From: a virus
Length of the DNA stretch: 14,115 nucleotides
UHGV virus genome: UHGV-0305805
Direction: 5' to 3' (one strand)
This document shows, piece after piece, positions 1-14,115 of the stretch; position 1 is the first letter of the stretch, and each line of letters starts with the position of its first letter. A program made the translations under genes and the position numbers. Under the pieces are notes generated by a model. The model was not told where the DNA came from. It worked only from the letters and a program-made list of their open reading frames with translations, and did no database searches.

Positions 1-133
1 AACAGCATACAGAAGGGGCTTAAAAGCCCCTTTAGTGTTTTATGGGTGAAAAAATTATGAAGAGTATGGAAATCCGGTCATCGGAAATCACTACCAGCGG
101 AGCCGGTACGCTGACGGGCTACGTTGTTCGCTG
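1..133. repeat. Inverted repeat, left copy: exact reverse complement of 3003-3135
   Basis: Base-by-base comparison: 1-133 equals the reverse complement of 3003-3135, and identity stops at 134 (g versus t). It contains the palindromic hairpin GGGGCTTAAAAGCCCC (14-29) plus T-rich tract, and the first ~30 codons of the protease gene. Confidence 0.9.
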
Positions 134-614
134 GGATAAGCTTTCAGAACTGCTATGGGGGGAGTTTTACGAAAAATTCCAGCGGGGGGCGTTTACTGAG
201 TGGCTTGCGGCGGGTAATGACGTTCGCGGCCTGTATGAGCATGACCACAGCATGTTACTGGGGCGCACCCGTTCCGGCACGCTGAAACTGGAAGAGGACG
301 AAACAGGGTTACGCTTTGAACTGACCCCACCGGATACCAGTACAGGGCGCGACGTTATCGAACTGGTTAAGCGTGGGGACATCTCGGGGATGAGCTTTGG
401 CTTTCGCTCCCGTAAGGATGTATGGGATACCACAACAGATCCATGCGTGCGCACCGTGCTGGTGGCGGAACTGTACGAAATTACCGTTACATCGGTACCG
501 GCTTACCCCGATTCCGGCGTGGAGCTGGCCCGCCGTTCCCTGTATGAGCAGCACCCCGAAAAAATGCCGCGTGCGGATAATCGCCGCTGGTGGGTGGATT
601 TAGCGGGGGTGTGA
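42..614 (+). CDS. Prohead maturation protease, HK97 / S78 family
   Basis: 190-aa ORF with the conserved histidine context LYEHDHSMLLGRT and serine context DISGMSFGF typical of this protease family. Stop overlaps the portal start region. A likelier start is ATG at 57, preceded by GGGTGA. Confidence 0.85.
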   Translation: MGEKIMKSMEIRSSEITTSGAGTLTGYVVRWDKLSELLWGEFYEKFQRGAFTEWLAAGNDVRGLYEHDHSMLLGRTRSGTLKLEEDETGLRFELTPPDTSTGRDVIELVKRGDISGMSFGFRSRKDVWDTTTDPCVRTVLVAELYEITVTSVPAYPDSGVELARRSLYEQHPEKMPRADNRRWWVDLAGV

Positions 615-615
615 T

Positions 616-1827
616 ATGTGGCCTTTCAGAAGAAAAAAAGAGCAGCGCAGCATGACGCTGGATGAATTTATGGCGCTGGCTGGCACATCGAACACGGGGG
701 CGGGTGAGTACGTATCATCGGGGACAGCGGAATCACTGCCCGCCGTCATGAACGCCGTGACGGTCATCTCTGAGGCGGTGGCTACCATGCCGTGTTACCT
801 GTACCTGGTACGCAATGAGAAGGGGAAGGAGGCCCGCGAGTGGCTTGATTCTCATCCGGTCGATCACATCCTCAACGAGCGCCCGAACGCATGGCAAACC
901 CCCTACCAGTTTAAGCGAATGATGATCCGCCACTGCCTGTTAAACGGTAATGCTTATGCGGTGATTCAGTGGGGGCGTGATGGTTTTCCGGCGGCTTTAC
1001 ATCCTTACCCGCCGCAGTCGGTGAACGTGGAGCAGACAGGCGAACACAACTGGCGCTACTGCATCACTGACGCCTACACCGGAAACACCCGCAACTATTT
1101 ACCGTGGGAAGTACTTCACCTTCGTTACTCCACGGATGACGGCTTTATGGGGCGCTCACCTGTAACCATCTGCCGCGAATCGCTGGGGCTTGGGCTGGCC
1201 CAACAACGCCACGGCGCGAGCGTGATGCGTGATGGCATGATGGCGGCAGGGGTTATCACGTCAGGCGAATGGCTGGACGGCGTGAAGGGCAAACAGGCAT
1301 TAGCCGCACTGGAACGCTACAAAGGGGCCAGAAACGCCGGAAAAACGCCCATCCTTGAAGGGGGTATGAGCTATCAGCAGCTGGGCATGAGTAATCAGGA
1401 TGCTGAATGGCTGGCCTCCCGTCGCTTCACCATTGAAGACATCGCCCGAATGTTCAACGTCTCGCCGATTTTTTTGCAGGAATACAGCAACAGCACCTAC
1501 AGCAATTTCAGCGAGGCAAGCCGCGCATTTCTCACCATGACGATGCGCCCGTGGCTGGCGAACTTTGAGCAGCAGATAAAAAACGCCCTGCTGGTGGCCT
1601 CGCCTGTACCTGGTATCCGGTATCAGGTGGAGTTTGACAGCGCGGACCTGTTACGGGCCACACCTGGCGAACGCTTTGCCACCTATGAGCGCGGCATCAA
1701 ATCCGGCGTTATGTGTCCGAACGAAGCCCGCGAACGTGAAGGTCTGTCACCGCGTGATGGTGGTGATGAGTTCAGCCAGGCATGGAAACAGGAAGTAAAA
1801 ATCAGCGAGGGAGAAAAACCGGAATGA
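616..1827 (+). CDS. Phage portal protein (HK97-family-like)
   Basis: 403-aa ORF immediately after the protease and followed by head-completion genes; size and position fit a portal. Its stop overlaps the next start (ATGA). Confidence 0.75.
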   Translation: MWPFRRKKEQRSMTLDEFMALAGTSNTGAGEYVSSGTAESLPAVMNAVTVISEAVATMPCYLYLVRNEKGKEAREWLDSHPVDHILNERPNAWQTPYQFKRMMIRHCLLNGNAYAVIQWGRDGFPAALHPYPPQSVNVEQTGEHNWRYCITDAYTGNTRNYLPWEVLHLRYSTDDGFMGRSPVTICRESLGLGLAQQRHGASVMRDGMMAAGVITSGEWLDGVKGKQALAALERYKGARNAGKTPILEGGMSYQQLGMSNQDAEWLASRRFTIEDIARMFNVSPIFLQEYSNSTYSNFSEASRAFLTMTMRPWLANFEQQIKNALLVASPVPGIRYQVEFDSADLLRATPGERFATYERGIKSGVMCPNEAREREGLSPRDGGDEFSQAWKQEVKISEGEKPE

Positions 1828-2162
1828 ACATAGGGCGACTGCGTGACAGGATAACGATTCAGACCCTGAAACAGACCAGGGATATAACCGGCGAAATACT
1901 CGAAACGTGGGAGGACGGTCACACACTCTGGGCAAGCGTGAACATGGTCAGCAGCAAGGAGGCCATTTCATCGGGCGCAGAGCTGGCGATTGGTACCGTA
2001 AGGATCTGGATACGGTACCGGAAGGACATCAACGCCACCAGCCGGATAAAGGTCAGTACGGGGCCGCTGGCGGGGCGTGTACTGAATATCATCGGGCAGC
2101 CGCTGCCGGATGCCGCCAGGACACGCCTTGAAATTCTTTGTCGTGAGGGCGCGGAAAAATGA
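1824..2162 (+). CDS. Head closure / head-tail joining protein
   Basis: About 112 aa starting MNIGRLRDRITIQ at an ATGA overlap with the portal stop; contains an IRYRKDI-type motif common in head-tail joining proteins. The ORF track extends it to 1782. Confidence 0.6.
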   Translation: MNIGRLRDRITIQTLKQTRDITGEILETWEDGHTLWASVNMVSSKEAISSGAELAIGTVRIWIRYRKDINATSRIKVSTGPLAGRVLNIIGQPLPDAARTRLEILCREGAEK

Positions 2163-2455
2163 CAGAAGAACTTATCACCCTGGAAGAAGTGAAACTCCAT
2201 TGCCGCATCGATGGCGACGATGAAGACCAGTTAATCAGCGGATACATTGCCGCATCGCTTGAGGCGTGCCAGATACACATAGGCAGGCGCTTTGATGACG
2301 GGCTGGAGTTCACGCCAGCCATAAAGATTGGCTGCATGATGTTTATCGCTCACCTGTATGAAAATCGCCAGATTGTCGCGGATAACGCAAAAACACGCGT
2401 ACCCATGACGATAGGCGCACTCTGGACGGCTTACCGTGATGTGGGGGTGTACTGA
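2159..2455 (+). CDS. Head-tail connector (gp6-like DNA-packaging / connector protein)
   Basis: 98 aa; N-terminal ITLEEVKLHCRIDGDDEDQLI resembles the conserved N-terminus of gp6-type connectors. Translationally coupled on both sides. Confidence 0.65.
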   Translation: MTEELITLEEVKLHCRIDGDDEDQLISGYIAASLEACQIHIGRRFDDGLEFTPAIKIGCMMFIAHLYENRQIVADNAKTRVPMTIGALWTAYRDVGVY

Positions 2456-2895
2456 TGCCGTGGCAACCATTAAGACGATGCACAGAACCAGGCTGTAACA
2501 GGCGCGTTAAATCCGGCAAGTGTGAGGAGCACAGGCGGGCGGCATGGCGTGCAGAGGATGCCAGACGAGGACACCGCCGCGCGCGTGGATATTCCAGACA
2601 GTGGGACAAATACCGCGCCATGTATCTGAGTAAAAACCCGTTATGCGTGCGATGCCTTGAGAAGGGGATATATACGCCCGCCGTGGTGGTGGATCACATT
2701 ATCCCGATTAATGGCGGTGATGATGTTCTCTTCTGGCCCGAATGGAACCATCAACCATTGTGCCAGGCGTGTCATAACCAGAAAACGAAATGGCTTGATC
2801 CGGCAACAAAAAGCAAGCGTGCCGCAGGTGGATTTCGTGAAGAGGAAGAACGGGCCGCTAACCGCAATAACTGGATGTATGACGCTGATGAATGA
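2455..2895 (+). CDS. HNH endonuclease (packaging-associated)
   Basis: 146 aa with paired cysteine motifs (CTEPGCNRRV, CVRCLEKG) and the catalytic-type region VVDHIIPINGGDD...NHQPLCQACHNQKT. Confidence 0.85.
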   Translation: MPWQPLRRCTEPGCNRRVKSGKCEEHRRAAWRAEDARRGHRRARGYSRQWDKYRAMYLSKNPLCVRCLEKGIYTPAVVVDHIIPINGGDDVLFWPEWNHQPLCQACHNQKTKWLDPATKSKRAAGGFREEEERAANRNNWMYDADE

Positions 2896-3058
2896 GCGGG
2901 AACAAAACCGCCTTATCCGTGGACTTATAAGGCAGCGTGACGCATGGAAGACACAGGAAACAGGGCATAAAGATAAAGCGTCAGGACGCGCAGAACGCAT
3001 CACAGCGAACAACGTAGCCCGTCAGCGTACCGGCTCCGCTGGTAGTGATTTCCGATGA
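2888..3058 (+). CDS. Short ORF (56 aa) whose last 18 codons lie inside the inverted repeat; possible 5' remnant of a disrupted gene downstream of HNH
   Basis: ATG at 2888 overlaps the HNH stop. Codons 1-38 are unique sequence; the remainder is antisense of the protease 5' end supplied by the repeat. The longer 2657-3058 version in the ORF track overlaps HNH out of frame. Confidence 0.2.
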   Translation: MNEREQNRLIRGLIRQRDAWKTQETGHKDKASGRAERITANNVARQRTGSAGSDFR

Positions 3059-3135
3059 CCGGATTTCCATACTCTTCATAATTTTTTCACCCATAAAACA
3101 CTAAAGGGGCTTTTAAGCCCCTTCTGTATGCTGTT
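3003..3135. repeat. Inverted repeat, right copy: exact reverse complement of 1-133
   Basis: Same comparison as the left copy. The repeat ends one base short of the last capsid codon position (capsid stop is the complement of 3134-3136). Confidence 0.9.
3091..3121 (-). terminator. Intrinsic terminator after the capsid gene
   Basis: GC hairpin GGGGCTTTTAAGCCCC at 3106-3121; on the minus strand it is followed by TTTAGTGTTTT. A second copy sits at 14-39 inside the left repeat. Confidence 0.6.
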
Positions 3136-4291
3136 AATCGTCGTCCTGTGGCAGTTCCAGAATCTTGATCGCGTTCGAATCCACCACGCCACCGCCTAAA
3201 TATTTCTGCGTGAAAATTTTGATGAAGCCCGGCTCTGTGAGGTTGTCCGGTCTGGTGCGAACACCTGTTTCGTGATCAACAATGTAGTAACCGCGTTTGA
3301 AGTCACCCAGGGCAATAACGTTATCCGGCATAAACTCCAGATATTCGACCGGAAGGCCCAGTAACGTATCAGGATCACCCGCCTGTAAACGGTCGCGCCA
3401 GATGTAATCACCGTTCGCGTTCTTCACCTTCTGAAGTTTTGCCGCCGTCGTGGAGTTAACCACCCAGACCGCGTTTTTGCGGTATTTTTTACGTAATGCA
3501 AATTTCAGGTCGATCAGCGGGTCCGCAGATGTCCACGCCAGAGATTCGGAAGGTTTAATTACCTGCAACGTACCAAAATCACGCTCTTTGTCGTTCTTCT
3601 CTGCACGGGGTACGGATAAAAAGCCTTTTGCTTTTTTGTCACCGTCGCCCACAACCAGATCGCTTTCTTCGGTTTCCGTGAAGTTGTCGCCAATCTCGCC
3701 CGTCAGCCATGAAAGGATGTCCACATCGGAAAAATCCACGATTTCCTGCGTGGTGCGCGGGTACGCATAGACCGGATACAGCTTAATGCTCACCTCGTTA
3801 ATCTGCGGGGTGCTGGTCTGTTCGCGTGCCTTACCCTCTTCACCGTGGTTAACGGTCGCACCGCCAGCGGAAACAAGCTGCTTAAACTCGTTGCTGCTGA
3901 TTTTCTTCACGGTACAGATGCGGCGCATGGTGGATTCATCCGTCAGCATTCGCATGATTTCGGTGTTCAGTTCGGGGATAACGGTATAACCACCATCAGC
4001 GGGAACGCCTGTACTTAATGCGCGGGTTTCACCTGTCAGAATGTAGTGACGTAGTTCGGCTGGGTCAGTGGTCTGACTGCTTTTACCTGGCTTGCTGCGC
4101 TCTTCGTCTGCAATGGCTTCAAGGCGGGAAATGTCTTTATCGAGGGATTCAGCTTTAGCGCGTAATTCGTCAAATTTTGCGCCCTCAGCATCGTTAAGAC
4201 TGCGGTTTTCTTTTTCCGCGTTCTCCAGCATGTCGCGCATCTGATTTTTAATGGCGGTTTTCTGCTGGCGTAATTCGATTATTCTCGGCAT
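3134..4291 (-). CDS. Major capsid protein, HK97 fold, with an N-terminal coiled-coil (scaffold-like) domain
   Basis: 385 aa. The first ~70 residues are charged and heptad-like (ELRQQKTAIKNQMRDMLENAEKENRSL...), followed by a capsid-like body. Confidence 0.85.
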   Translation of the reverse strand: MPRIIELRQQKTAIKNQMRDMLENAEKENRSLNDAEGAKFDELRAKAESLDKDISRLEAIADEERSKPGKSSQTTDPAELRHYILTGETRALSTGVPADGGYTVIPELNTEIMRMLTDESTMRRICTVKKISSNEFKQLVSAGGATVNHGEEGKAREQTSTPQINEVSIKLYPVYAYPRTTQEIVDFSDVDILSWLTGEIGDNFTETEESDLVVGDGDKKAKGFLSVPRAEKNDKERDFGTLQVIKPSESLAWTSADPLIDLKFALRKKYRKNAVWVVNSTTAAKLQKVKNANGDYIWRDRLQAGDPDTLLGLPVEYLEFMPDNVIALGDFKRGYYIVDHETGVRTRPDNLTEPGFIKIFTQKYLGGGVVDSNAIKILELPQDDD

Positions 4292-4532: not shown

Positions 4533-4540
4533 TAATTTAC

Positions 4541-4572: not shown

Positions 4573-4578
4573 GTGTGA

Positions 4579-4860
4579 TTATCTGTCCTGGTAATTTCGC
4601 CATATTTCATTACCAGCACCATCCATACCCATTTCGGCATAAGTGCGATCGACCGCCTTTTTCAGGTCTCCGTAGTTATCCGGCGGCTCCGGTGGCCTCT
4701 GTGCCTTCCTGGAACATTCCAGCCGTCGCATCGTGATGTGATGCCGTTCCTTGTCTGTCTCCACCAGTTGCATGACTTCACCCCATCGCGCCGACGCTCT
4801 CCGGTAAAAGCCTTTCGCCTCCAGTTCTTCCGCTATGCGGTCATGTACCATCGTCCCCAC
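4579..4860 (-). CDS. Small regulator, PerC / ANR-like (tentative)
   Basis: 93 aa; the segment AEELEAKGFYRRASARWGEVM resembles the motif I recall for PerC/ANR-family small regulators. This is from memory and was not searched. Confidence 0.5.
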   Translation of the reverse strand: MGTMVHDRIAEELEAKGFYRRASARWGEVMQLVETDKERHHITMRRLECSRKAQRPPEPPDNYGDLKKAVDRTYAEMGMDGAGNEIWRNYQDR

Positions 4861-4863
4861 CCC

Positions 4864-5274
4864 TCAGAACGGAATATCATCACCGTAAGGGTCATCGCCT
4901 CCCGCTGGTGGCTGATTACCCTGTGTGCCTGTGGTCTTGCGTCGGCTCCCACCAGGACGTGCCGCACGGGCACTGATTACGCTGTCTGCAATAACCTGAT
5001 AACCCTGCCGCGTTTCCCCGTTCTGTCCGGTCCACTGGCTGACCTGCATCGTGCCGGATACGCTGGCAACGTCGCCTTTTTGATGTTTAGCCAGGAAGTC
5101 GGCCTGCTTACCAAATGCGATGACCGATAGCCATAACGTCGCCTGTCCATCCTGTGCCTGGCTGCATGGCAGCGATACCGCCATACGCGCCAGCGTCATC
5201 GGTGTACCCTTGCTGGTCTGTTTTACCTGCGGGTCGTCCACCAGCCGCCCGTAAGCTGCTATCTGTGCTGTCAT
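4864..5274 (-). CDS. ssb: Single-stranded DNA-binding protein
   Basis: 136 aa; Gly/Pro/Gln-rich linker and an acidic C-terminal tail ending DDIPF, the hallmark SSB tip. Confidence 0.8.
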   Translation of the reverse strand: MTAQIAAYGRLVDDPQVKQTSKGTPMTLARMAVSLPCSQAQDGQATLWLSVIAFGKQADFLAKHQKGDVASVSGTMQVSQWTGQNGETRQGYQVIADSVISARAARPGGSRRKTTGTQGNQPPAGGDDPYGDDIPF

Positions 5275-5549
5275 GATTCCACCTCTCCGGTTTTAACGTT
5301 GATGGTTGTTACCTGTTCCGCTTCGGCAATCTCCCGCTCTGTCAGCGTGGCAAAATTTGCCGCCGTCGTGGTCATGAATGCGCTTATCAGTTCGGGATGT
5401 GCTTTCGCGTATCCTTCCCCCGCGTGGCGGTCTATCGTTCTGATTGCCACCTTTAAAGCGTGCTCTGTCATGTCTAACGCGCGATATTTCGGTTCTGTTC
5501 TGTCTCTGCGTTTTTTGAGTGATTTATTAAATTTCCCTGAAGTGTGCAT
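5271..5549 (-). CDS. Hypothetical protein (92 aa)
   Basis: ORF between the origin iterons and ssb; its stop overlaps the ssb start (ATGA). Weak ribosome-binding site. Confidence 0.45.
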   Translation of the reverse strand: MHTSGKFNKSLKKRRDRTEPKYRALDMTEHALKVAIRTIDRHAGEGYAKAHPELISAFMTTTAANFATLTEREIAEAEQVTTINVKTGEVES

Positions 5550-5597
5550 ATTTATTTTTACCCCCTCGTTTAAAAAGTTTTGAGTTGTGCCTCCCCT

Positions 5598-5824
5598 TGT
5601 CTACCTTATCTACCTTAGTGGCCCTCATACCAGTAATGGCGCGGCTTTCAGCGGGGTAGAGTGCTTTTATCCACTATCTACCCCGTGTCTACCTCCCTGT
5701 CTGATTCAGGTAAAATCAGGTAGAGAGGGTAGATAGTGGGTAGACAGTAAAAAAAGGTTATCTACCTAACTTAATGCACTGAATTAAATGTATTTTTCTT
5801 TACTCAGGTAGACAGGGTAGACAG
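5598..5824. repeat. Iteron array, putative origin of replication (GGTAGACAG family, both orientations, with an AT-rich tract)
   Basis: At least 11 copies of GGTAGA[C/G/T]AG or its complement at 5598-5614, 5653-5661, 5674-5693, 5719-5747 (three in tandem), 5758-5766 and 5807-5824 (two in tandem). AT-rich stretch at 5770-5805. Immediately downstream of the primase gene. Confidence 0.75.
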
Positions 5825-5837
5825 CAATTACAAAAAA

Positions 5838-7592: not shown

Positions 7593-7888
7593 TTTTTACC
7601 CCTGAATCCGTTAATCATGGTTTTCAGCTTCTGGATGTTTGCCCGTGCCCTGGCGTTGCTGGTGGACACGTTATGCGGCGCGGTCTGTACCAGAGAAAAA
7701 TCACGCCGGAACTGATAAACAGGCATCACGCAATCATATTCGTAACCTTCACGGCGGTAGGTTACGCGCCGTTCTTCCACGCCCTTAATCATTACCGTGC
7801 CGCCGTACTGGTCGCGGTAAATATCGCCGCGCGTAAATTTAGGGTGAGTGTTGCCACTGGCAGTTAAGCCAGAATATTTAAGTTTCAT
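7589..7888 (-). CDS. Hypothetical protein (99 aa), translationally coupled to the primase
   Basis: ATG at 7886-7888; stop overlaps the primase start. Confidence 0.55.
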   Translation of the reverse strand: MKLKYSGLTASGNTHPKFTRGDIYRDQYGGTVMIKGVEERRVTYRREGYEYDCVMPVYQFRRDFSLVQTAPHNVSTSNARARANIQKLKTMINGFRGKK

Positions 7889-7893
7889 TATTT

Positions 7894-8127
7894 TTATTCT
7901 CCGGTGTGCTGTTCTTTATATCTGTCGTGCAATAGATCTATTTCTTGCAGTTCCATTATTACAGGCTCAAGAAGCGTTATTAATGCCGTGGCAATTCTTG
8001 ATTTTTGTTTGTCGCGTTCATTGTCGCCAAGTGTTTCAAGCCATATGCGCAATATTTCCAGCATGTTTTCACTGTGAGAAAGTGCAAGAAATGCGCGGTC
8101 TATTGTTTCGTGGTAAATATCACGCAT
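7894..8127 (-). CDS. Hypothetical protein (77 aa)
   Basis: ATG with GAGGA upstream; overlaps the stop of the upstream ORF by 8 nt. Confidence 0.55.
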   Translation of the reverse strand: MRDIYHETIDRAFLALSHSENMLEILRIWLETLGDNERDKQKSRIATALITLLEPVIMELQEIDLLHDRYKEQHTGE

Positions 8128-8353
8128 GGCTTACATCCTCAGGAAATTTTCTTCTATAACGCGCCTCTGCCACATATTCCGCATAATCGGCGGCGATATT
8201 CAGTACATCAAGCCCCGTTGATTTATATTCTCTCGTGGAAAGTAAGAAAAAAGCCGCTCTAATAAGTTCTGGCATTGACGAAAGCGCATCAGCCGCATCA
8301 TCAGGAACGCCGGAAAATTCCTGTTTCAGGGAATTAAAACGATCATCACGCAT
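8120..8353 (-). CDS. Hypothetical protein (77 aa)
   Basis: ATG with GGGGGG upstream; 8-nt overlap with the upstream ORF. Confidence 0.55.
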   Translation of the reverse strand: MRDDRFNSLKQEFSGVPDDAADALSSMPELIRAAFFLLSTREYKSTGLDVLNIAADYAEYVAEARYRRKFPEDVSHA

Positions 8354-8711
8354 GTTTACCCCCCTGAATGACCTGATAACCGCAACTGGTCAGCAACTCG
8401 ATAAATTCCGGCAGTGTGCCGAAACAGCAATCATCACGCAGCCGTTCACAGGATACCTCGACGCCGTTTTCGTAGTGACTCACCATACATCCGGTAAAAT
8501 GCAGATCATCATCGTGATGGCTCGTTGACGGCTTAATCAGTCGCGCACGTTCCGCCAGTTCCAGCAATGCTTCAACGCTTCCGGCAATTGCACCATCCGG
8601 CAGGTGATAATTACGCACTATGCGCCCGTTCTCCACATTGACCAGCAACTGCCCGGTAAATTTCTCATCAAACTGAATGCTGTTAAGGTCAGAAATTGAC
8701 AGATTATGCAT
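8346..8711 (-). CDS. Hypothetical protein (121 aa)
   Basis: ATG at 8709-8711 preceded by a perfect AGGAGG at about 6-nt spacing. The ORF track extends it to 8729. Confidence 0.6.
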   Translation of the reverse strand: MHNLSISDLNSIQFDEKFTGQLLVNVENGRIVRNYHLPDGAIAGSVEALLELAERARLIKPSTSHHDDDLHFTGCMVSHYENGVEVSCERLRDDCCFGTLPEFIELLTSCGYQVIQGGKHA

Positions 8712-8928
8712 GGTGCACCTCCTGCACATCAGCCATGATAATTTTTCCGGCCTTATCCAGTGCCTGATCGGCTTTTAGCTGCACAAATGCTAAATAATGG
8801 AAGATGCATTCTGATTCTCTGGCTGCGTGTTTATGCGCCCTGTCAGCAATAACAGAAATATCAATAAGCGCGTGCATCAGCGTAGTGAGCGCGGCGGCGG
8901 CTGCGTCCGGTGTGGTTTTATTGCACAT
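8704..8928 (-). CDS. Hypothetical protein (74 aa)
   Basis: ATG at 8926-8928 preceded by GGAGGGG. The ORF track extends it to 8982. Confidence 0.5.
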   Translation of the reverse strand: MCNKTTPDAAAAALTTLMHALIDISVIADRAHKHAARESECIFHYLAFVQLKADQALDKAGKIIMADVQEVHHA

Positions 8929-9148
8929 GTACCCCTCCGCATTTTTTTTCGTTAGAAATAAGCGTTCTTCTTTCCTGTTCATCGCTCAGGAATACGCAGA
9001 CCTCACCGCTAAGGCGTTTAAGTAAGCCGATGATTGCCCCTGATTCGCTGTCGGTCATCATGCCAGGGTAATCCTCTGCCAGTGCGCAAATAACTTCGAT
9101 TTGGTGGGCGCGTTCTGCTGCCTGTTGTAGTGTGATTTCCTGGCTCAT
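8918..9148 (-). CDS. Hypothetical protein (76 aa)
   Basis: ATG at 9146-9148 preceded by GGGGGTAGG; ATGA overlap with the upstream ORF. Confidence 0.55.
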   Translation of the reverse strand: MSQEITLQQAAERAHQIEVICALAEDYPGMMTDSESGAIIGLLKRLSGEVCVFLSDEQERRTLISNEKKCGGVHVQ

Positions 9149-9345
9149 AAGCCTACCCCCTGACGAATACGGGCAGCAAATACCATCACGCAGCCAGCCG
9201 GAGATTGCTGGCGTGCTTCCTGTTCGCTGGTGGCCTCAATGGTAATCACGCGCGGTTGTGCCGTGCTCAGGGCGATAAAACGCCAGATGTATTTATTCAG
9301 GTTGTGCGAGTCCCGCCCTTGCGGGTGTGTGGTATGATTTCTCAT
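9145..9345 (-). CDS. Hypothetical protein (66 aa), first gene of the leftward operon
   Basis: ATG at 9343-9345 preceded by GAGGTAG. It is the C-terminal part of a 340-aa ORF in the track that I regard as spurious upstream of this start. Confidence 0.5.
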   Translation of the reverse strand: MRNHTTHPQGRDSHNLNKYIWRFIALSTAQPRVITIEATSEQEARQQSPAGCVMVFAARIRQGVGL

Positions 9346-9441
9346 AGCTACCTCGATACTTTCGCTATCGTTGGTGGTTAGAAGCCCGGTTAGTGTTAGC
9401 GCACTGCCGGGTTTCGTCGTTTCTGCACCTTGCGCCAACAA

Positions 9442-9495
9442 GGTGTTGAACACCAATTTAAACCCAGGTGTTAAACACGTCAAGTGTTGAACACT
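9442..9495. promoter_or_regulatory. Three palindromic operator-like sites, GTGTT-N-AACAC, between divergent promoters
   Basis: GGTGTTGAACACC at 9442-9454, GTGTTAAACAC at 9468-9478, AGTGTTGAACACT at 9483-9495; centres 25 and 16 bp apart. The third overlaps a -35-like TTGAAC for the rightward gene. Confidence 0.6.
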
Positions 9496-9544
9496 TATTT
9501 TTTTTCCTGCATACTGCATTTGTTTTTTATGAGGGGTACACCAC

Positions 9545-9724
9545 ATGGCGACAAAAGCGGTAAACGCAAAATCACAAACCGTTGCGGCAAGGGTTCCGCA
9601 TGAAGTTATGAACAATGTTGAGGCGGTAAAAATGCCTGGCGAAAGTACGGGGCAATTTGTTACTGCGGCATTAAAACGAGAAGTTGAATATCGCCAGCGG
9701 CGCAAGGCCAAAGAACCAGAGTAA
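9545..9724 (+). CDS. Ribbon-helix-helix (Arc/CopG-like) DNA-binding protein, candidate repressor
   Basis: 59 aa, ATG preceded by GAGGGG at 8-nt spacing. Sequence fits a beta-strand (TVAARVPHEV) followed by two helices; basic C-terminus. Below the 60-aa cutoff of the ORF track. Confidence 0.55.
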   Translation: MATKAVNAKSQTVAARVPHEVMNNVEAVKMPGESTGQFVTAALKREVEYRQRRKAKEPE

Positions 9725-9781
9725 TCACCATCAGCGCCGTGGTGTAAGGTATTACGGCGCATTGCTATGCAGGACAACACA

Positions 9782-9955
9782 ATGACCGATAAAGAATTGA
9801 CCAAAACATTATCACCGGCACGGAAAAGACGGCGCAGAAAGATAGAGCATGAATCAGAAAGATTCGCGCCATGTGCTTTTGCCCTTGAGCAATTCCTTAA
9901 AGAGTACAGGGAAAAGCGCTCATTGCAGGTATGGCAACGAACTGAACCAGACTGA
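9782..9955 (+). CDS. Small basic protein (57 aa), possibly co-transcribed with the ribbon-helix-helix gene
   Basis: ATG at 9782 with AGGA about 9 nt upstream; arginine/lysine-rich (ARKRRRRKIEHE). Coding status uncertain. Confidence 0.3.
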   Translation: MTDKELTKTLSPARKRRRRKIEHESERFAPCAFALEQFLKEYREKRSLQVWQRTEPD

Positions 9956-10050
9956 TTGCATTGCCCACCAGCCTGATAACGGCTATCATCCCCGTGCTTA
10001 TGTTTGGGATCACACACACAAACGGCGCAGCGGGTTATCTGTTCAGAAAG

Positions 10051-10078
10051 GCGGCTCCATTTCGGGGCCGCTTTTTTT
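10051..10078 (+). terminator. Intrinsic terminator ending the rightward transcript
   Basis: GCGGCTCC-attc-GGGGCCGC followed by seven T. Confidence 0.65.
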
Positions 10079-10224
10079 ATACCTGAAAAACCCCAATTTT
10101 GTTGTTTTTCAGTTTCACCAGGGCGAACGAATCCCCGCCCACGTTCTGGCGTATATTCAATCTTCATGGTTATAGCTCTGTGTTCAGATGATTGATGTGT
10201 GGCGGCTGCGTGCCGCCAGCGTGA

Positions 10225-10413
10225 TTAATGAACTGCCTTGCAGCTATCCTTCCAGGCCAGAACCTCGGATAAAGACCAGCCAACGGAACGACCGCCAAGT
10301 TTACGACGTGATGGGAATTGTCCGGCCTTTTCCAGGCGGTAGCGACACGTACGGCTAAGGCCGGTTAGTTTTTCGCATTCTTTTTCACGTATAAACCGAT
10401 CAGTGCTTAACAC
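10225..10413 (-). CDS. alpA: AlpA-family phage regulatory protein (helix-turn-helix activator)
   Basis: Contains EKLTGLSRTCRYRLEKAGQFPSRRKLGGRSVGWSLSEVLAW, matching the AlpA helix-turn-helix signature. Likely start is GTG at 10411-10413 preceded by AGGGGGG; the ORF track extends it to 10494 with a TTG start. Confidence 0.8.
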   Translation of the reverse strand: MLSTDRFIREKECEKLTGLSRTCRYRLEKAGQFPSRRKLGGRSVGWSLSEVLAWKDSCKAVH

Positions 10414-10686: not shown

Positions 10687-10730
10687 TTGTTCGTAGTTGT
10701 TCCACATTGTTGCTCATTGTTGCACGTTGT
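10687..10730. promoter_or_regulatory. Phased TTGTT[C/G] hexamers (x4, exactly 10-bp spacing) ending in the complement of CAACGTGCAACAA
   Basis: TTGTTC at 10687 and 10697, TTGTTG at 10707 and 10717; the 13-mer at 10717-10729. Located between the integrase stop and alpA, in opposite orientation to the other three clusters. Confidence 0.4.
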
Positions 10731-10778
10731 ATCTGTTCGCATATCCAGTATGCGCATACTGAAAAAACACGAAAAAAA

Positions 10779-12008
10779 TTATTTTCTTCTGGCTACGGGT
10801 AGCGTGGTTACGTTTTCATGTGTTCCCGCCAGTATCCCTAACCGCTCCGTCCACATATCCAGCGCATTGCGTTTCGCATCCAGATAACGGGAATGATTAT
10901 AAACTCGCTGCATTCCTGGCATCTGGTGGCCTGTAAGCTGCTCCACGACATGCGGATCAACGCCTAAATCGTTCAGCATGGTTGTAAAGGTGCGCCGGAT
11001 GTCATGCAGTGACCAGTGAGGGTGATTAAGCCTCCTGTACGCTAATCTTCCATACTGCGATACGCTGGCCTCCTGTTTCACTTCCCCCAGCAATAAGCCC
11101 GTGTGCCTGTTCTGCTCCACCAGCTGCGTGACGAACGGCAGGATCGCTTCCGGTATGGGCCGGAATATTGCGACCTTCGTTTTGCTGTGCTCCTTCGGAA
11201 CGGTCCATAGCATTTCCGTAAAATCCCACTCCCCGATCTCCGATAACCTCAGTTCTACCGTTCTGGCTCCGAAGACAATCAGGAGGCGGATTAACGCGAC
11301 GTAGTAAGGGGAGAATATTTTTTTGTCCAGTGCCTGCAATAATTCGCCAAGTTCTTTGTTACTTAAGACACGTTCGCTTATATCCGGTTTTTTCCCAACG
11401 TCCGCAACGTTCAGATCGTCCAGAACGTTGCTGATTGCATAGCGCCGCCTACGGCAGAACTTAAGCGCCTGTTTGCACGCCTGTAGCACGAATCCGGCAG
11501 TAACAGGCGTTCGCTTTGCCACCTGGTCAAAACAGGCCAGCCAGTGCCGTAGCTCGCATTTATCCAGCGGCATAGCACCAATCTGCTGTATTACGTGATT
11601 ATTAAGTCGCCTTTTCAGGGCGATATAATCCACGCGGTTTTCCTTTACGTAATACTCAAGCCAGTAGGTGAGCGCATCGCCAACCGTTACGGGCTTTAAC
11701 GCTTCCTGTACGGTGTAATTCATCTCATGACGTGGATTTTTCCCCTCAGCCAGCCATGTGCGACACTGTGCGGCTTTTTCCCTGGCTGCTTTCAGGCTCA
11801 GATCAGGATAACTTCCCAGCTTAATGCGTTCGGGTCGTGTCTCCCTTCCCGTTCCGGCCCTGTATGTGAAATACCAGGTCAATTTCCCTGATGTTAAATA
11901 TTTCACGCTCAGGTTTCCGCCATCACTATAAAACGTGTTTTTCTCCGCTGGCTTACCATGAAGTTTCCTTAGCAAGGTATCGCTCAGTTTGTTCATTGCT
12001 CTGCTCAC
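10779..12008 (-). CDS. int: Tyrosine recombinase / integrase, P4-like
   Basis: 409 aa with catalytic-region motifs ARTVELR, HDIRRTF and a C-terminal YNHSRYLD tyrosine context. Start could be GTG at 12008 or ATG at 11996. Confidence 0.9.
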   Translation of the reverse strand: MSRAMNKLSDTLLRKLHGKPAEKNTFYSDGGNLSVKYLTSGKLTWYFTYRAGTGRETRPERIKLGSYPDLSLKAAREKAAQCRTWLAEGKNPRHEMNYTVQEALKPVTVGDALTYWLEYYVKENRVDYIALKRRLNNHVIQQIGAMPLDKCELRHWLACFDQVAKRTPVTAGFVLQACKQALKFCRRRRYAISNVLDDLNVADVGKKPDISERVLSNKELGELLQALDKKIFSPYYVALIRLLIVFGARTVELRLSEIGEWDFTEMLWTVPKEHSKTKVAIFRPIPEAILPFVTQLVEQNRHTGLLLGEVKQEASVSQYGRLAYRRLNHPHWSLHDIRRTFTTMLNDLGVDPHVVEQLTGHQMPGMQRVYNHSRYLDAKRNALDMWTERLGILAGTHENVTTLPVARRK

Positions 12009-12033
12009 GTTTTACCCCCTCTTTACGAAAAAG

Positions 12034-12056
12034 TGACTACACCAGTGACTACACCG
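12034..12056. repeat. 23-bp direct repeat, copy 1: TGACTACACCAGTGACTACACCG (tandem decamers)
   Basis: Exact match to 12267-12289. Sits 26-48 bp upstream of the integrase start and is followed by CAACGTGAAACAA (12076-12088) and phased GAACAA-like hexamers to about 12109. Confidence 0.8.
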
Positions 12057-12266
12057 ATCGTTGCACAAAGGGCTACAACGTGAAACAAGCTGGAACAAGG
12101 AAAATCACAAATCTGTTGATAATCAAAAACATAATGCACAGCCTGAAACATTATGAAACAGCAAAAAACACTAAATGATAAAATGCTGTTATATATAACT
12201 TATTTCGCATAACACATTGATTTAATTAAATAATTAACACCGCAAAAAGTGCCAAAAATCGCAAAA

Positions 12267-12289
12267 TGACTACACCAGTGACTACACCG
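12267..12289. repeat. 23-bp direct repeat, copy 2, followed by CAACGTGGAACAA (12309-12321)
   Basis: Exact match to copy 1. The 210 bp between the two copies is strongly AT-rich. Confidence 0.8.
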
Positions 12290-12551
12290 TTCGGTGCACT
12301 GTATGAAACAACGTGGAACAAATAGACACAAGAAATATACAGGCGGATCATCTTTCCAGGGGGAAGCACACCAATTCATGAGGGGCGTTAATGTCGATAT
12401 GGGGATCCCCACCTACCGGAATTTTTTTCCGGTTAAACGTTAATCAGGCTGGTGGGCTTTACCTGTTCGGTAGGTGTTATGATTATCGTAATACCTTTCC
12501 CCCAATGGGGTAAAAGCATCAACCGTAACGAAAGTCGTTATGGTTGCCACT

Positions 12552-12662
12552 GATACCCCAAATTTGGGTATCACGAGTAAGCCCCAAAATCTGGGTGTTA
12601 CTCTTACTACCCAAACTACGGGTAGTTTCCGTAGTTTCATGGTCGAGTTGCAGATCTGCAAC
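12552..12662. repeat. Cluster of four palindromes/hairpins in a gene-free region
   Basis: GATACCCCAAATTTGGGTATC (12552-12572); a CCCAAA...GGG unit near 12582-12597; ACTACCC-aaactac-GGGTAGT (12606-12626); perfect palindrome GTTGCAGATCTGCAAC (12647-12662). The first three share a CCCAAA-N-GGG(T) core spaced about 26 bp. Confidence 0.5.
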
Positions 12663-12918
12663 TCCCCCATTAACCACAGGCGAATTTCCGCCTTCGGTCA
12701 TTCCTTAATCATCTGCGTAATCATAATGATTATTCAGCAAGCGCAATTTTGCGCTTTGCTTAAAGTTCAGCGAGTTACCGCGCCGACTTCCTCAAATTGA
12801 GGTTTCCGAAAATATCAGCGGGTTAGCGATTAAGCTGACCATTAATTAAACTGCGAAAATGTCGTAGTTGTGAGGGGTGTAGCCAACCCATTTTTGGGCC
12901 GTCGGGAATATCAACCAG

Positions 12919-13200
12919 TTACCGCCGCAACCGCTCCGGCTTCTTCCAGTGGTACGTTATTTTCTCCTTCTCCCGATACATCTCCACGCGGCGACGGTAG
13001 GCCAGCAACTCAAGAACTCTGGTTCGTATGTTGCGCATATCCACGCCATTAAGTTCTATACCATCACGGCGCATCACCTCAGCAACAACACGCGCATAGT
13101 TTTCGGCTGTCACGCTGTCCGGCTGCGTGGCCTGTTCGTCAGCCTGCTGGCTGATTCCGGCAACGCGGCGGATTAATCCCGTTATTTCGGCTTCTGTCAT
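12919..13200 (-). CDS. Hypothetical protein (93 aa) downstream of the terminase fragment
   Basis: ATG at 13198-13200 with GAGG 8 nt upstream; starts 11 nt after the terminase-fragment stop; composition is protein-like. Confidence 0.5.
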   Translation of the reverse strand: MTEAEITGLIRRVAGISQQADEQATQPDSVTAENYARVVAEVMRRDGIELNGVDMRNIRTRVLELLAYRRRVEMYREKEKITYHWKKPERLRR

Positions 13201-13213
13201 GCTGCTGACCTCA

Positions 13214-13963
13214 TTACACCCCGCTAAATTCTTCCAGTTTCTGGCGGTGGCTGTCGCTTATATCAAAAGCAAAATCCTCATGCTCTGCCTGGAATGTACC
13301 AAACGCCATCAGCGCCGCCACGCTCGGGTCTATCTTGTTCGGTGATTTTTTCTTGTTCGGCTTGATATTGGCGTTCGCGTCACTCTGCATCACGACGTTA
13401 CTCATCGACCAGGACAACACCGGATCGCCACGATGCACAATCACCCTGCGGTTAACAAAAACTTCGAACGATTTCGCCGCCGGACTGAATCTGAGGTAGG
13501 TTTGCGGGAACGGCTCCACCTCAAAACCTGCCCCCTGTAATTGCGTTCTGAGATGCGTGGCGTTCCACGTATCAAAGCCCACCAGCCTGATATTAAATTT
13601 CTCCGCGTCCTGCATGATGTCATCTCTGATCCGGTCGTAATCAATGCAGTCGCCAGGCGTTGTGCGTATCCAGCCTGCTTTAGCCCACTGACGATAGATG
13701 GCGCGGTTTTTATTGGCGGGGTTCTGTAGCTGAAATTCCGGCAGATAGTGACGGGAAACCAGCATAATGGTTTTACCGACCGGAAAGGCATAGCACACGC
13801 TGGAAATATCGCTGGTTGATGATAAGTCCAGCCCCGCGTAACACTCCTGGCCGTGTAAATCTTCCTCCGTGAACGTTCCGGCACACTCAGCCCATGCGCC
13901 GTTACCCATCCACGGGGTAGCCCCCTGGCACCAGATATTAAATCGCTTTGTCATCATCTCCAC
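13214..13963 (-). CDS. Terminase large subunit, C-terminal nuclease domain only (N-terminal ATPase absent; truncated or rearranged)
   Basis: 249 aa with acidic nuclease-type motifs YAGLDLSSTSD, LVGFDTWN and KIDPSVAALMAF. No Walker A. The reading frame upstream is closed by a stop about 12 codons before the start, and the start lies inside an inverted repeat. Confidence 0.65.
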   Translation of the reverse strand: MEMMTKRFNIWCQGATPWMGNGAWAECAGTFTEEDLHGQECYAGLDLSSTSDISSVCYAFPVGKTIMLVSRHYLPEFQLQNPANKNRAIYRQWAKAGWIRTTPGDCIDYDRIRDDIMQDAEKFNIRLVGFDTWNATHLRTQLQGAGFEVEPFPQTYLRFSPAAKSFEVFVNRRVIVHRGDPVLSWSMSNVVMQSDANANIKPNKKKSPNKIDPSVAALMAFGTFQAEHEDFAFDISDSHRQKLEEFSGV

Positions 13964-13979
13964 CCACTGCGACGGAATA
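13922..13979. repeat. Inverted repeat, inner copy: reverse complement of 14058-14115, the last bases of the window
   Basis: Exact 58-bp match separated by a 78-bp spacer (13980-14057). The outer copy runs off the window, so the repeat may be longer. Confidence 0.9.
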
Positions 13980-14057
13980 GTGGATAAAGGCGAACCCTAA
14001 TATTGATGTTTCCGTCGATCGTGAAAAACTGGCCTCAACCATCCAGAAAGCGCGGGG

Positions 14058-14115
14058 TATTCCGTCGCAGTGGGTGGAGATGATGACAAAGCGATTTAAT
14101 ATCTGGTGCCAGGGG
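14058..14115. repeat. Inverted repeat, outer copy; the plus strand here reads the sense start of the terminase fragment (…IPSQWVEMMTKRFNIWCQG)
   Basis: Reverse complement of 13922-13979; the reading frame continues off the window. Confidence 0.9.

What the first reader, a model, noticed from the sequence alone, without database searches (positions are those of the whole stretch)
1..14115. Tail-less satellite with its own capsid and packaging genes plus P4-type replication and integration
The window combines integrase, AlpA, a P4-alpha-type primase/helicase and an iteron origin with a head module (major capsid with N-terminal coiled-coil domain, protease, portal, head closure, connector, HNH, terminase fragment). 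No tail, baseplate, fibre or lysis gene is visible. This matches what I recall being described as capsid-forming phage-inducible chromosomal islands, which build their own small capsids and borrow helper tails. Gene order capsid, protease, portal differs from the canonical HK97 order portal, protease, capsid. Placing this element in that family is from memory and unverified.
Basis: partly seen in the sequence, partly recalled or inferred. Interest (0 to 1): 0.7.

Follow-up and report, generated by a model that had tools for sequence, protein, structure and literature searches.

The report
Known capsid-forming satellite island, scrambled window
The window holds a copy of an already described E. 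coli phage satellite that builds its own small capsid and borrows only tails from a helper phage (a capsid-forming PICI, nearly identical in its head genes to the published prototype EcCIEDL933), but this window is a rearranged version of it.

Summary
The window is in pieces 100% identical to a 15.26-kb island inserted precisely in tqsA of many E. coli. In natural copies all genes are collinear: int, alpA, icd-like, small ORFs, P4-family primase/helicase, iteron ori, SSB, PerC, capsid, protease, portal, head closure, connector, HNH, hyp60, TerS, TerL, hyp93. Both flanks are chromosomal, so there is no tail or lysis gene. The packaging module is 97.4% identical in DNA to EcCIEDL933, the experimentally characterised prototype cf-PICI. 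The capsid is 382/385 identical to the PDB chain 9gyi, which by identity and the preprint's description is taken to be the EcCIEDL933 T=4 capsid. Only the primase (32% aa) and the att site differ.

It has an attP-type junction (core TGCTGTTAT, 12184-12192) and two inverted (foldback) junctions (3003-3009; 13979|13980). These flip protease-to-HNH onto the other strand, delete TerS and the TerL ATPase half, and create inverted duplications at both ends. Neither foldback junction occurs in 5,426 complete E. coli genomes. They are most likely assembly or library chimeras, but this is unresolved. Low novelty.

The parts
1..133 (.). Inverted duplicate of window 3003-3135 (the capsid-protease junction region and the start of the protease gene). 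It is part of the foldback structure at junction J1.
   Evidence: window 1-3009 is the reverse complement of L001 14215-11207, and window 2999-3135 is L001 14079-14215 in forward orientation.
42..614 (+). HK97-family prohead serine protease (190 aa).
   Evidence: Peptidase_S78, E 7e-48; phrog_80; 97.4% aa identity to the EcCIEDL933 protease.
616..1827 (+). Portal protein (403 aa).
   Evidence: Phage_portal, E 2.5e-90; 99.3% aa identity to EcCIEDL933.
1824..2162 (+). Head closure / head completion protein (112 aa as annotated in RefSeq; the longest ORF starts at 1782).
   Evidence: Phage_HCP, E 1.7e-23; phrog_25, Hc1; 96.4% aa identity to EcCIEDL933.
2159..2455 (+). gp6-like head-tail connector/adaptor (98 aa).
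   Evidence: Phage_connect_1, E 5.6e-12; phrog_40, Ad1; 99.0% aa identity to EcCIEDL933.
2455..2895 (+). HNH endonuclease, the packaging cofactor of TerS/TerL (146 aa).
   Evidence: HNH, E 1.8e-8; phrog_144, E 8e-45; 99.3% aa identity to EcCIEDL933.
2879..3002 (+). 5' part of the 60-aa gene between HNH and TerS, the homologue of EcCIEDL933 'gene 1792'. Junction J1 truncates it in the window.
   Evidence: the natural protein is 100% identical to that of EcCIEDL933; the 1792 mutant is severely reduced in transfer; the reading frame leaves the reference sequence at 3002/3003. The gene-number assignment (1792 = hyp60) is my inference from gene 1786 being the capsid.
3003..3009 (.). Junction J1. 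This is an inverted (foldback) join of L001 11207 (HNH-TerS interval, reverse strand) to L001 14083 onward, with 7-nt microhomology CAGCGAA.
   Evidence: the junction is contiguous in 0 of 5,426 complete E. coli genomes.
3134..4291 (-). HK97-fold major capsid protein with an N-terminal delta/scaffolding-like extension (385 aa).
   Evidence: Phage_capsid, E 1.5e-61, residues 100-379; 382/385 identical to PDB 9gyi; the EcCIEDL933 capsid is T=4, 47.5 nm, and its capsid protein is cleaved near residue 93.
4579..4851 (-). PerC-family transcriptional activator (90 aa).
   Evidence: PerC, E 4.6e-43; 85.6% aa identity to the EcCIEDL933 homologue.
4864..5274 (-). Single-stranded DNA-binding protein (136 aa).
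   Evidence: SSB, E 4.2e-17; 98.5% aa identity.
5271..5549 (-). Conserved hypothetical protein (92 aa, phrog_1231).
   Evidence: 79% aa identity to the EcCIEDL933 counterpart.
5593..5830 (.). Putative replication origin. It holds 11 copies of the hexamer GGTAGA/TCTACC (core of a longer G/A-GGTAGA-C/T motif) in both orientations, flanking an AT-rich stretch immediately downstream of the primase gene.
   Evidence: 11 of the 12 window occurrences lie here; 3.2 are expected window-wide. Origin function is inferred and was not tested.
5838..7592 (-). Primase/helicase (584 aa) with D5_N, an SF3 helicase domain (DUF5906) and a Pox_D5 C-terminal domain.
   Evidence: TIGR01613 'P4 family', 109.1 bits against a cutoff of 108.7; phrog_864, E 1e-175; only 32% aa identity to the EcCIEDL933 DUF927 protein.
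7589..9148 (-). DUF4222 protein and five small conserved hypothetical genes (7589-7888, 7894-8127, 8120-8353, 8346-8711, 8704-8928, 8918-9148).
   Evidence: all fall in PHROG families of unknown function.
9145..10167 (-). Icd-like region. RefSeq annotates an Icd-like protein (9145-9546) and an Icd-like pseudogene (9720-10167), with a ylcI/ynfO-family gene on the opposite strand (9545-9724 +). The window reads through all of it as one 340-aa ORF.
   Evidence: one NCBI assembly calls the 340-aa product.
10225..10413 (-). AlpA-family regulator/excisionase (62 aa; the longest ORF runs to 10494).
   Evidence: Phage_AlpA, E 1.5e-16; 100% identical to EcCIEDL933 AlpA; mutation of that AlpA abolishes induction and transfer.
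10779..12008 (-). Tyrosine integrase of the P4/CP4-57 type (409 aa).
   Evidence: Arm-DNA-bind_3, Phage_int_M and Phage_integrase; 91% aa identity to the EcCIEDL933 integrase.
12030..12321 (.). attP-type region. The 9-bp core TGCTGTTAT (12184-12192) is flanked on each side by a tandem pair of TGACTACACC repeats (12034, 12046; 12267, 12279), which are candidate integrase arm sites.
   Evidence: 4 exact copies against 0.46 expected; the same junction is 100% identical between two tandem island copies in E. coli EC444.
12919..13200 (-). Conserved 93-aa hypothetical gene, the last gene of the island after TerL (phrog_1561).
   Evidence: (87% aa identity to EcCIEDL933).
13214..13979 (-). C-terminal (nuclease-domain) part of the large terminase, about residues 300-553. 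Junction J2 removes the ATPase half.
   Evidence: TerL_nuclease, E 3.8e-35; the natural TerL is 553 aa and intact.
13980..14115 (.). Junction J2 (13979|13980, no microhomology) followed by the reverse complement of L001 9874-9739. Window 14058-14115 is an exact inverted copy of 13922-13979, a foldback with a 78-nt loop.
   Evidence: the junction is contiguous in 0 of 5,426 complete E. coli genomes.

Best explanation
The DNA is a capsid-forming phage-inducible chromosomal island (cf-PICI) of the EcCIEDL933 lineage. Its natural form is a 15.26-kb island integrated in the E. coli tqsA gene.

The mechanism below was shown experimentally for EcCIEDL933 and is inferred here from near-identity.

1. 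A helper siphophage (HK106 or HK446 for the prototype) triggers expression of AlpA.
2. The island is excised by its integrase through the TGCTGTTAT core.
3. It replicates from the iteron origin using its own primase/helicase and SSB.
4. It expresses one operon: capsid, protease, portal, head closure, connector, HNH, hyp60, TerS, TerL.
5. The capsid protein carries its own N-terminal scaffolding-like domain, which the S78 protease removes. It assembles into small T=4 heads that fit about 15 kb but not the helper genome.
6. The island's own HNH/TerS/TerL cut and package island DNA at an island-specific cos site.
7. The head closure and connector proteins dock helper-made tails. Release depends on helper lysis.

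The window itself is not a natural copy.

- It contains the element's ends joined (attP-type junction), as in a circular, concatemeric or tandem form.
- It contains two inverted foldback junctions. These invert the protease-to-HNH block, remove TerS and the TerL ATPase half, and duplicate short stretches in inverted orientation at both window ends.
- I take the foldbacks to be assembly or library chimeras.
For: Gene content
- Pfam, PHROGs and NCBIfam profiles identify every module.

Natural context
- The collinear island sits in tqsA with chromosomal genes on both sides.
- The 9-bp att core is defined, and the empty site is 100% identical to the predicted excision product. The site is uninterrupted in 5,165 of 5,426 genomes.

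Relation to the prototype
- The packaging module is 97.4% identical in DNA to EcCIEDL933, and individual proteins are 96-100% identical.
- The capsid is 382/385 identical to PDB 9gyi.

Published experiments on EcCIEDL933
- Induction depends on AlpA.
- Every packaging-module gene is required for island transfer and none for helper-phage transfer.
- Helper tail genes are required.
- The island makes small capsids, which are T=4, 47.5 nm, with a cleaved capsid protein.
- Adaptor and connector proteins set tail specificity.

Family definition
- cfPICI has 11 core components, and tails and holins are forbidden.

Distance from true phages
- Full-size phages are 40% aa identity or less to the capsid.

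Origin and att sites
- Iteron cluster. Arm-type repeats around the att core.

Window rearrangement
- Block structure and junctions.
- J1 and J2 are absent from all 5,426 complete genomes.
- The attP-type junction is present in a tandem dimer in strain EC444.
Against: - No experiment exists on this tqsA variant.
- Its primase differs from the prototype's (32% aa identity), and its helper phage is unknown.
- Origin function of the iterons and the cos position are inferred.
- As it stands, the window lacks TerS and the TerL ATPase domain. If the window were a real molecule, it could not package itself.
- The cause of the two foldback junctions could not be established without reads. The source of the window was not found in any searchable collection.
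- The inverted overlaps at the two ends (133 and 58 nt; 136-nt tail) do not fit one k-mer size, so a simple de Bruijn graph artefact is not demonstrated.
Confidence: 0.92

Rival explanations
1. A decayed HK97-like prophage that lost its tail and lysis genes, that is, a cryptic remnant rather than a functional satellite.
For: - The head and packaging genes are phage-derived HK97-type families.
- The window shows a truncated TerL and no TerS.
Against: - The truncation is specific to the window. Natural copies have every ORF intact and collinear.
- The element has exact att boundaries and an exact empty site.
- The left half is the PICI-type int-alpA-primase module, not a lambdoid immunity/replication region.
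- The near-identical EcCIEDL933 is experimentally mobilised at high frequency.
- No full-size phage has a capsid above 40% aa identity.
Confidence: 0.03
2. The window is a real rearranged derivative. It would carry a foldback or inverted duplication, or be an inverted dimer, with TerS and half of TerL deleted. That would make it a defective island or a replication/recombination intermediate captured in sequencing.
For: - Junction J1 has 7-nt microhomology, typical of template switching.
- The two junctions cap the same 11-kb segment at both ends, which is consistent with one inverted-dimer molecule (and my reasoning).
- The attP-type junction shows that the source held a tandem, circular or concatemeric form.
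Against: - Neither junction occurs in 5,426 complete E. coli genomes, although each half occurs in 359 to 519 of them.
- The same signature (inverted joins with little or no homology) is the classic product of amplification or assembly chimeras. This point rests on established knowledge and was not tested here.
- The product would lack essential packaging genes.
- An inverted dimer of about 25 kb would not fit a T=4 head that holds about 15.5 kb.
Confidence: 0.15
3. A P4-like satellite, or a classical (non-capsid-forming) PICI, that remodels helper capsids.
For: It has a P4/CP4-57-type integrase, AlpA, an Icd-like gene and a P4-family primase C-terminal domain. The published work also notes that the left half of cf-PICIs is shared with classical PICIs.
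Against: - It encodes its own capsid, protease, portal, adaptor, connector and TerL. These are forbidden or distinguishing components for PICI in SatelliteFinder.
- No protein matched a P4 sid/psu/delta-type family in Pfam or PHROGs.
Confidence: 0.02

Closest known systems
EcCIEDL933, the prototype capsid-forming PICI of E. coli O157:H7 EDL933 (Alqurainy et al., bioRxiv 10.1101/2022.09.08.507074; He et al., bioRxiv 10.1101/2025.02.11.637232)
   Same: - The architecture and gene order are the same: int, alpA, icd-like, DUF4222, primase, SSB, PerC, capsid, protease, portal, head closure, connector, HNH, hyp60, TerS, TerL, hyp93.
- DNA identity is 97.4% over the 6.9-kb packaging module.
- AlpA, hyp60 and TerS are 100% identical; capsid 99.2%, portal 99.3%, TerL 98.7%.
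- The size is similar: 15.26 kb against 15.4-15.5 kb.
   Different: - The integration site differs: inside tqsA here, between roxA and phoQ in EDL933. The integrase is 91% identical.
- The replication protein is of a different type: 584 aa D5_N/DUF5906 against 710 aa DUF927, 32% identity.
- The region between alpA and DUF4222 differs.
- This island has no small ORF between PerC and the capsid gene.
- The window copy also carries the rearrangements described above.
Other proteobacterial cf-PICIs: EcCIGN02175 and KpCIDSM30104 (named in the literature), plus two satellite-sized GenBank 'phage' records that I take to be cf-PICIs, vB_KppS-Ant (LR881103, 16.5 kb) and Pasteurella Pmp8 (OR544139, 15.3 kb)
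   Same: - For the two GenBank records, the size class is the same and the capsid proteins are 59-65% identical.
- For vB_KppS-Ant, the portal-to-connector region is about 76% identical in DNA.
   Different: - They are much more distant than EcCIEDL933 in sequence.
- EcCIGN02175 and KpCIDSM30104 were not compared here.
- He et al. report that their adaptors and connectors are only 35-63% identical to those of EcCIEDL933 and dock different helper tails.
HK97-like temperate siphophages (HK97, HK106, HK022)
   Same: - They have an HK97-fold capsid protein with an N-terminal delta domain, an S78 protease, a portal, gp6-like connectors, and HNH-dependent cos packaging.
   Different: - The gene order is different: capsid-protease-portal here against portal-protease-capsid. 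The HK97 order is textbook knowledge and was not retrieved here.
- The capsid is T=4 rather than T=7.
- This element has no tail, lysis or immunity genes.
- Capsid identity to any full-size phage is 40% or less.
Satellite P4
   Same: - It shares the integrase type, the P4-family primase/helicase C-terminal domain, an Icd-like gene, and dependence on a helper for tails and lysis.
   Different: - P4 uses helper P2 capsid protein, resized by Sid, and the helper's terminase and cos.
- This element encodes its own capsid and terminase.
- No sid/psu/delta homologue was detected.

Membership tests
cf-PICI (capsid-forming PICI; SatelliteFinder cfPICI model, Alqurainy et al.) | Integrase at one end, with site-specific insertion at a defined att site | tested here: met
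   The integrase domains were found. The 9-bp core TGCTGTTAT duplicated at both ends of the natural island, and the exact empty tqsA site, were found.
cf-PICI (capsid-forming PICI; SatelliteFinder cfPICI model, Alqurainy et al.) | AlpA-type regulator next to int | tested here: met
   Phage_AlpA matches at E 1.5e-16. The protein is 100% identical to EcCIEDL933 AlpA.
cf-PICI (capsid-forming PICI; SatelliteFinder cfPICI model, Alqurainy et al.) | Own primase-replicase, with an origin | tested here: met
   The protein has D5_N, DUF5906 and TIGR01613 domains. The iteron cluster lies at 5593-5830. Origin activity was not tested.
cf-PICI (capsid-forming PICI; SatelliteFinder cfPICI model, Alqurainy et al.) | Own major capsid, prohead protease and portal | tested here: met
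   All three were identified. The capsid is 382/385 identical to PDB 9gyi.
cf-PICI (capsid-forming PICI; SatelliteFinder cfPICI model, Alqurainy et al.) | Head-tail adaptor and connector genes, the components that separate cfPICI from PICI | tested here: met
   Phage_HCP and Phage_connect_1 match, as do phrog_25 and phrog_40.
cf-PICI (capsid-forming PICI; SatelliteFinder cfPICI model, Alqurainy et al.) | Own HNH, TerS and TerL packaging genes | tested here: met
   All three are intact in natural copies of the island. In the window as given, only HNH and the TerL nuclease half are present, and TerS is absent because of junction J2.
cf-PICI (capsid-forming PICI; SatelliteFinder cfPICI model, Alqurainy et al.) | No tail or holin/lysis genes inside the element | tested here: met
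   Every ORF of the 15.26-kb island is accounted for, and chromosomal genes abut both att sites.
cf-PICI (capsid-forming PICI; SatelliteFinder cfPICI model, Alqurainy et al.) | Proteobacterial gene order: capsid-protease-portal-connectors, then hnh-terS-terL, on one strand | tested here: met
   The order is met in the natural island. In the window it is broken by the inverted junction J1.
cf-PICI (capsid-forming PICI; SatelliteFinder cfPICI model, Alqurainy et al.) | Helper-phage-dependent induction, island-made small capsids, and use of helper tails only | not testable with these tools
   This was shown experimentally for EcCIEDL933. It is inferred here from 96-100% protein identity of the whole module.
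P4-like satellites | Capsid-size determination and helper-manipulation genes (sid, psu, delta), and reliance on helper capsid and terminase | tested here: not met
   No such family was hit in Pfam or PHROGs. The element encodes its own capsid and terminase.
Classical PICI | Absence of portal, head-tail adaptor/connector and TerL, which are forbidden or distinguishing components | tested here: not met
   All of these are present.
Complete HK97-like temperate prophage | Tail, lysis and immunity modules on the same element | tested here: not met
   None lies within the att-bounded island.

The most novel reading that the evidence does not exclude
The two foldback junctions and the joined ends could be real. 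In that case the window would record an induced island in a non-canonical DNA form: an inverted-dimer or snap-back replication intermediate, or a packaging-defective derivative that has lost TerS and the TerL ATPase domain and would have to be packaged in trans by a co-resident cf-PICI. Junction J1 lies in the HNH-TerS interval, where cos is expected, so it could mark a physical DNA end.
Probability: 0.1. Interest if true: 0.4.

Novelty: already known. Interest (0 to 1): 0.18.

Why it matters
The element belongs to a family published in 2022-2023 and studied in structural detail since. It is close to a copy of the prototype, so it adds no new biology. The modest points of value are these:

- It is a natural module swap. 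The packaging module is the same as in EcCIEDL933, but the primase and the att site (tqsA) differ. This fits the reported gene flow in the left half of PICIs and cf-PICIs.
- It is common. The exact integrase sequence is indexed in 2,734 blocks of public assemblies. About 7-10% of complete E. coli genomes carry DNA matching the packaging-module segments around J1 and J2 (359 and 519 of 5,426).
- It is a practical warning. This window is structurally scrambled, and an annotation taken at face value would report a satellite with a broken terminase and divergent operons that does not exist in nature.

Tried and rejected
**Source of the window.** It was not found.
- Exact 41- to 48-nt searches for the attP junction and for J1 gave nothing in viral contigs, metagenome contigs (attP only) or genome contigs (attP only).
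- Exact-protein look-ups of the chimeric hyp60 and of the 249-aa TerL fragment found nothing.
- The 247-aa form exists only on unrelated Logan contigs: one with a frameshifted TerL, one at a contig start.
- Contexts read for the integrase were all ordinary tqsA insertions.

**Plasmid form.** The one near-identical 'plasmid' record, CP088587.1, is a mislabelled chromosomal fragment with the normal integrated island.

**J1 as the cos end.** This is not supported. The GC-rich stretch that looks most cos-like lies about 60-100 nt further towards terS than the breakpoint. Nothing here can map cos.

**A single de Bruijn k explaining both ends.** This was rejected. The exact inverted overlaps are 133 nt and 58 nt, with a 136-nt tail after J2.

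**A simple inversion between short inverted repeats.** This was rejected. The left end of the window continues into sequence that a simple inversion would not place there.

**A P4-like CI/C4 RNA.** Rfam gave only a sub-threshold SymR-like hit.

**First guesses at the EDL933 coordinates** fetched two unrelated regions.

Full report
**What is in the window**

On the + strand:
- prohead protease, 42-614
- portal, 616-1827
- head closure protein, 1824-2162
- gp6-like connector, 2159-2455
- HNH endonuclease, 2455-2895

On the - strand:
- HK97-type major capsid protein, 3134-4291
- PerC-family regulator, SSB and a conserved hypothetical protein
- 584-aa primase/helicase, 5838-7592. It has D5_N, DUF5906 and Pox_D5 domains. 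NCBIfam TIGR01613 'P4 family' scores 109.1 bits against a cutoff of 108.7.
- DUF4222 protein and five small ORFs
- Icd-like region
- AlpA, 10225-10413
- P4/CP4-57-type tyrosine integrase, 10779-12008
- 93-aa hypothetical protein, 12919-13200
- nuclease half of a large terminase, 13214-13979

Other checks:
- The intergenic region downstream of the primase gene holds 11 of the 12 GGTAGA hexamers of the whole window, in both orientations, around an AT-rich patch. About 3.2 are expected in the whole window, and 0 of 200 shuffles reached 12. This fits an iteron origin.
- No tRNA was found.
- No Rfam family reached its threshold.
- No tail, baseplate, fibre or lysis gene is present.

**The natural element and its borders**

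The window matches E. coli chromosomes at 100% identity, but never as one piece. In strain SCU-204 (locus L001) the element is a 15.26-kb island. It splits tqsA, the AI-2 transporter gene, between ydgV/mdtJ on one side and pntB on the other. All of its genes are on one strand, in this order: int, alpA, icd-like, small ORFs, DUF4222, primase, hyp, SSB, PerC, capsid, protease, portal, head closure, connector, HNH, hyp60, TerS (P27 family), TerL (553 aa), hyp93.

The ends carry a 9-bp direct repeat, TGCTGTTAT. A sequence built by deleting the island and one repeat copy is found uninterrupted in 5,165 of 5,426 complete E. coli genomes, and in several at 100% identity. The island is therefore a precisely bounded insertion.

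**Relation to the published family**

The cf-PICI paper describes EcCIEDL933 as a 15.4-kb island with int, alpA and rep plus capsid, protease, portal, connectors, HNH, TerS and TerL, and no tail genes. It states that proteobacterial cf-PICIs have the order capsid-protease-portal-connectors, then hnh-terS-terL.

I located EcCIEDL933 between roxA and phoQ in the EDL933 chromosome and compared it with the tqsA island.

| Component | Identity to EcCIEDL933 |
|---|---|
| Packaging module, 6.9 kb (DNA) | 97.4% |
| AlpA, hyp60, TerS | 100% |
| Portal, HNH | 99.3% |
| Capsid | 99.2% |
| Connector | 99.0% |
| TerL | 98.7% |
| SSB | 98.5% |
| Protease | 97.4% |
| Head closure | 96.4% |
| Integrase | 91% |
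| Primase (different protein type) | 32% |

The capsid is 382/385 identical to PDB 9gyi. By identity and by the preprint's description, I take this to be the EcCIEDL933 capsid: T=4, 47.5 nm, with the capsid protein proteolytically matured near residue 93.

Against the phage collection, only satellite-sized records come close: 59-65% aa for the capsid in 15-16.5-kb entries. The exceptions are a 3.8-kb unannotated fragment and one unexamined 106.5-kb Klebsiella record. Full-size phages are 40% or less.

The SatelliteFinder definition of cfPICI has 11 core components, with tails and holins forbidden. The natural island meets it in full.

**How it most likely works**

All steps are shown for EcCIEDL933 and inferred here from near-identity.

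1. A helper siphophage induces AlpA expression. An alpA mutant is neither induced nor transferred.
2. The island excises, then replicates with its own primase and SSB.
3. It expresses the head and packaging operon.
4. Every gene of that operon is needed for island transfer, and none is needed for the helper. Helper capsid genes are dispensable for the island, but helper tail genes are required.
5. The T=4 head holds about 15.5 kb and excludes the helper genome.
6. The adaptor and connector proteins decide which tails can be docked. They are 96-99% identical to those of EcCIEDL933, so HK106-type tails are the best guess for this island. That is an inference.
7. The different primase and the iteron set suggest a swapped replication module. 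This agrees with the reported gene flow in the left half of these satellites.

**The window is not a faithful copy**

BLAST against L001 splits the window into four blocks.

| Window | Reference L001 |
|---|---|
| 1-3009 | 14215-11207, reverse complement |
| 2999-12192 | 14079-23272 |
| 12184-13979 | 8001-9796 |
| 13980-14115 | 9874-9739, reverse complement |

There are three non-reference junctions.

1. **The attP-type junction.** The island's two ends are joined across the att core at 12184-12192. Two tandem pairs of TGACTACACC flank the core and are candidate arm sites. The same junction occurs at 100% identity in strain EC444, whose chromosome carries two head-to-tail copies of the island in tqsA. 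The window's source therefore held a tandem, circular or concatemeric form.
2. **J1, at 3003-3009.** This is an inverted join with 7-nt microhomology (CAGCGAA). It connects the HNH-terS interval to the start of the protease gene. It places protease-to-HNH on the strand opposite to the capsid gene and truncates hyp60.
3. **J2, at 13979|13980.** This is a blunt inverted join inside terL. It is followed by 136 nt that fold back on the preceding sequence: a 78-nt loop and 58-nt exact arms.

Other consequences:
- L001 9875-11206 (TerL ATPase half, TerS, end of hyp60) is missing from the window.
- Window 1-133 is an exact inverted copy of 3003-3135.
- Queries spanning J1 or J2 are contiguous in 0 of 5,426 complete genomes. 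Their halves occur in 359 and 519 genomes respectively.

Inverted joins with little or no homology, capping one segment at both ends, are what amplification (MDA-type) or assembly chimeras look like. That is my preferred reading (about 0.75), but it rests on general knowledge and not on reads. A real foldback or defective derivative is not excluded.

I could not find the window's source in any searchable collection.

**Verdict**

The window holds a cf-PICI, and a very close relative of the prototype. The family, its mechanism and even its capsid structure are published, so novelty is 'already known' and interest is low.

- The fragment and the strand flip are products of the window's rearrangement.
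- The capsid-protease-portal order is the published hallmark of proteobacterial cf-PICIs, not an oddity of this element.

Noticed in passing
L069 (NZ_CM128674.1, E. coli EC444) 11938-42450; corresponds to window 12060-12320: A RefSeq chromosome-level assembly (record titled 'whole genome shotgun sequence') carries two complete head-to-tail copies of the island in tqsA. The inter-copy junction is 100% identical to the window's attP-type junction. A second genome, NZ_CM167691.1, has an 86%-identical junction. Whether this is a true tandem integration or an assembler absorbing excised circles is unknown.
   Followed up: partly
window 9346-9418 (+): There is a weak SymR-antitoxin-like RNA match (33.3 bits, gathering 61, E 0.0043), antisense to the Icd-like ORF. 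It is below threshold and may be chance. An antisense RNA opposite a cell-division-inhibitor-like gene would make sense as a type I toxin-antitoxin-like pair.
   Followed up: no
window 9145-10167: The Icd-like region reads as one 340-aa Cys-rich ORF in the window and in at least one NCBI assembly. RefSeq splits it into an Icd-like gene, an Icd-like pseudogene, and a ylcI/ynfO-family gene on the opposite strand (9545-9724 +). The annotation differs between records (133, 66 or 340 aa).
   Followed up: partly
window 4579-4851 (-): A PerC-family transcriptional activator sits immediately upstream of the head operon, as in EcCIEDL933. PerC/Pch proteins activate virulence (LEE) genes in EPEC/EHEC (from memory). 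Whether this one drives the packaging operon, host genes, or both is untested.
   Followed up: no
window 3134-4291 (capsid protein): After the EcCIEDL933 capsid, the closest solved structures are the major capsid proteins of the Rhodobacter capsulatus gene transfer agent (6tb9, 6tba; E about 1e-46). They rank ahead of any phage capsid in the PDB sequence search.
   Followed up: no
L007 (CP088587.1, 'plasmid pD17EC0246-3', 32.5 kb): This PLSDB/GenBank 'plasmid' is a chromosomal fragment (clcB to ydgI) containing the integrated island. It is a misassigned replicon.
   Followed up: yes
L001 11090-11150 (absent from the window): A GC-rich stretch (GGGGTGGGGGGCG ... CCCGACCCCGCCGGGC) lies between hyp60 and terS. 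It is the most cos-like sequence of the HNH-terS interval. It lies 60-100 nt beyond the J1 breakpoint.
   Followed up: no
L005 (Logan ERR10687854 contig) 5650-7311: A public assembly of the same packaging module has TerL split into 303-aa and 247-aa ORFs, through either a frameshift or a sequencing error.
   Followed up: no
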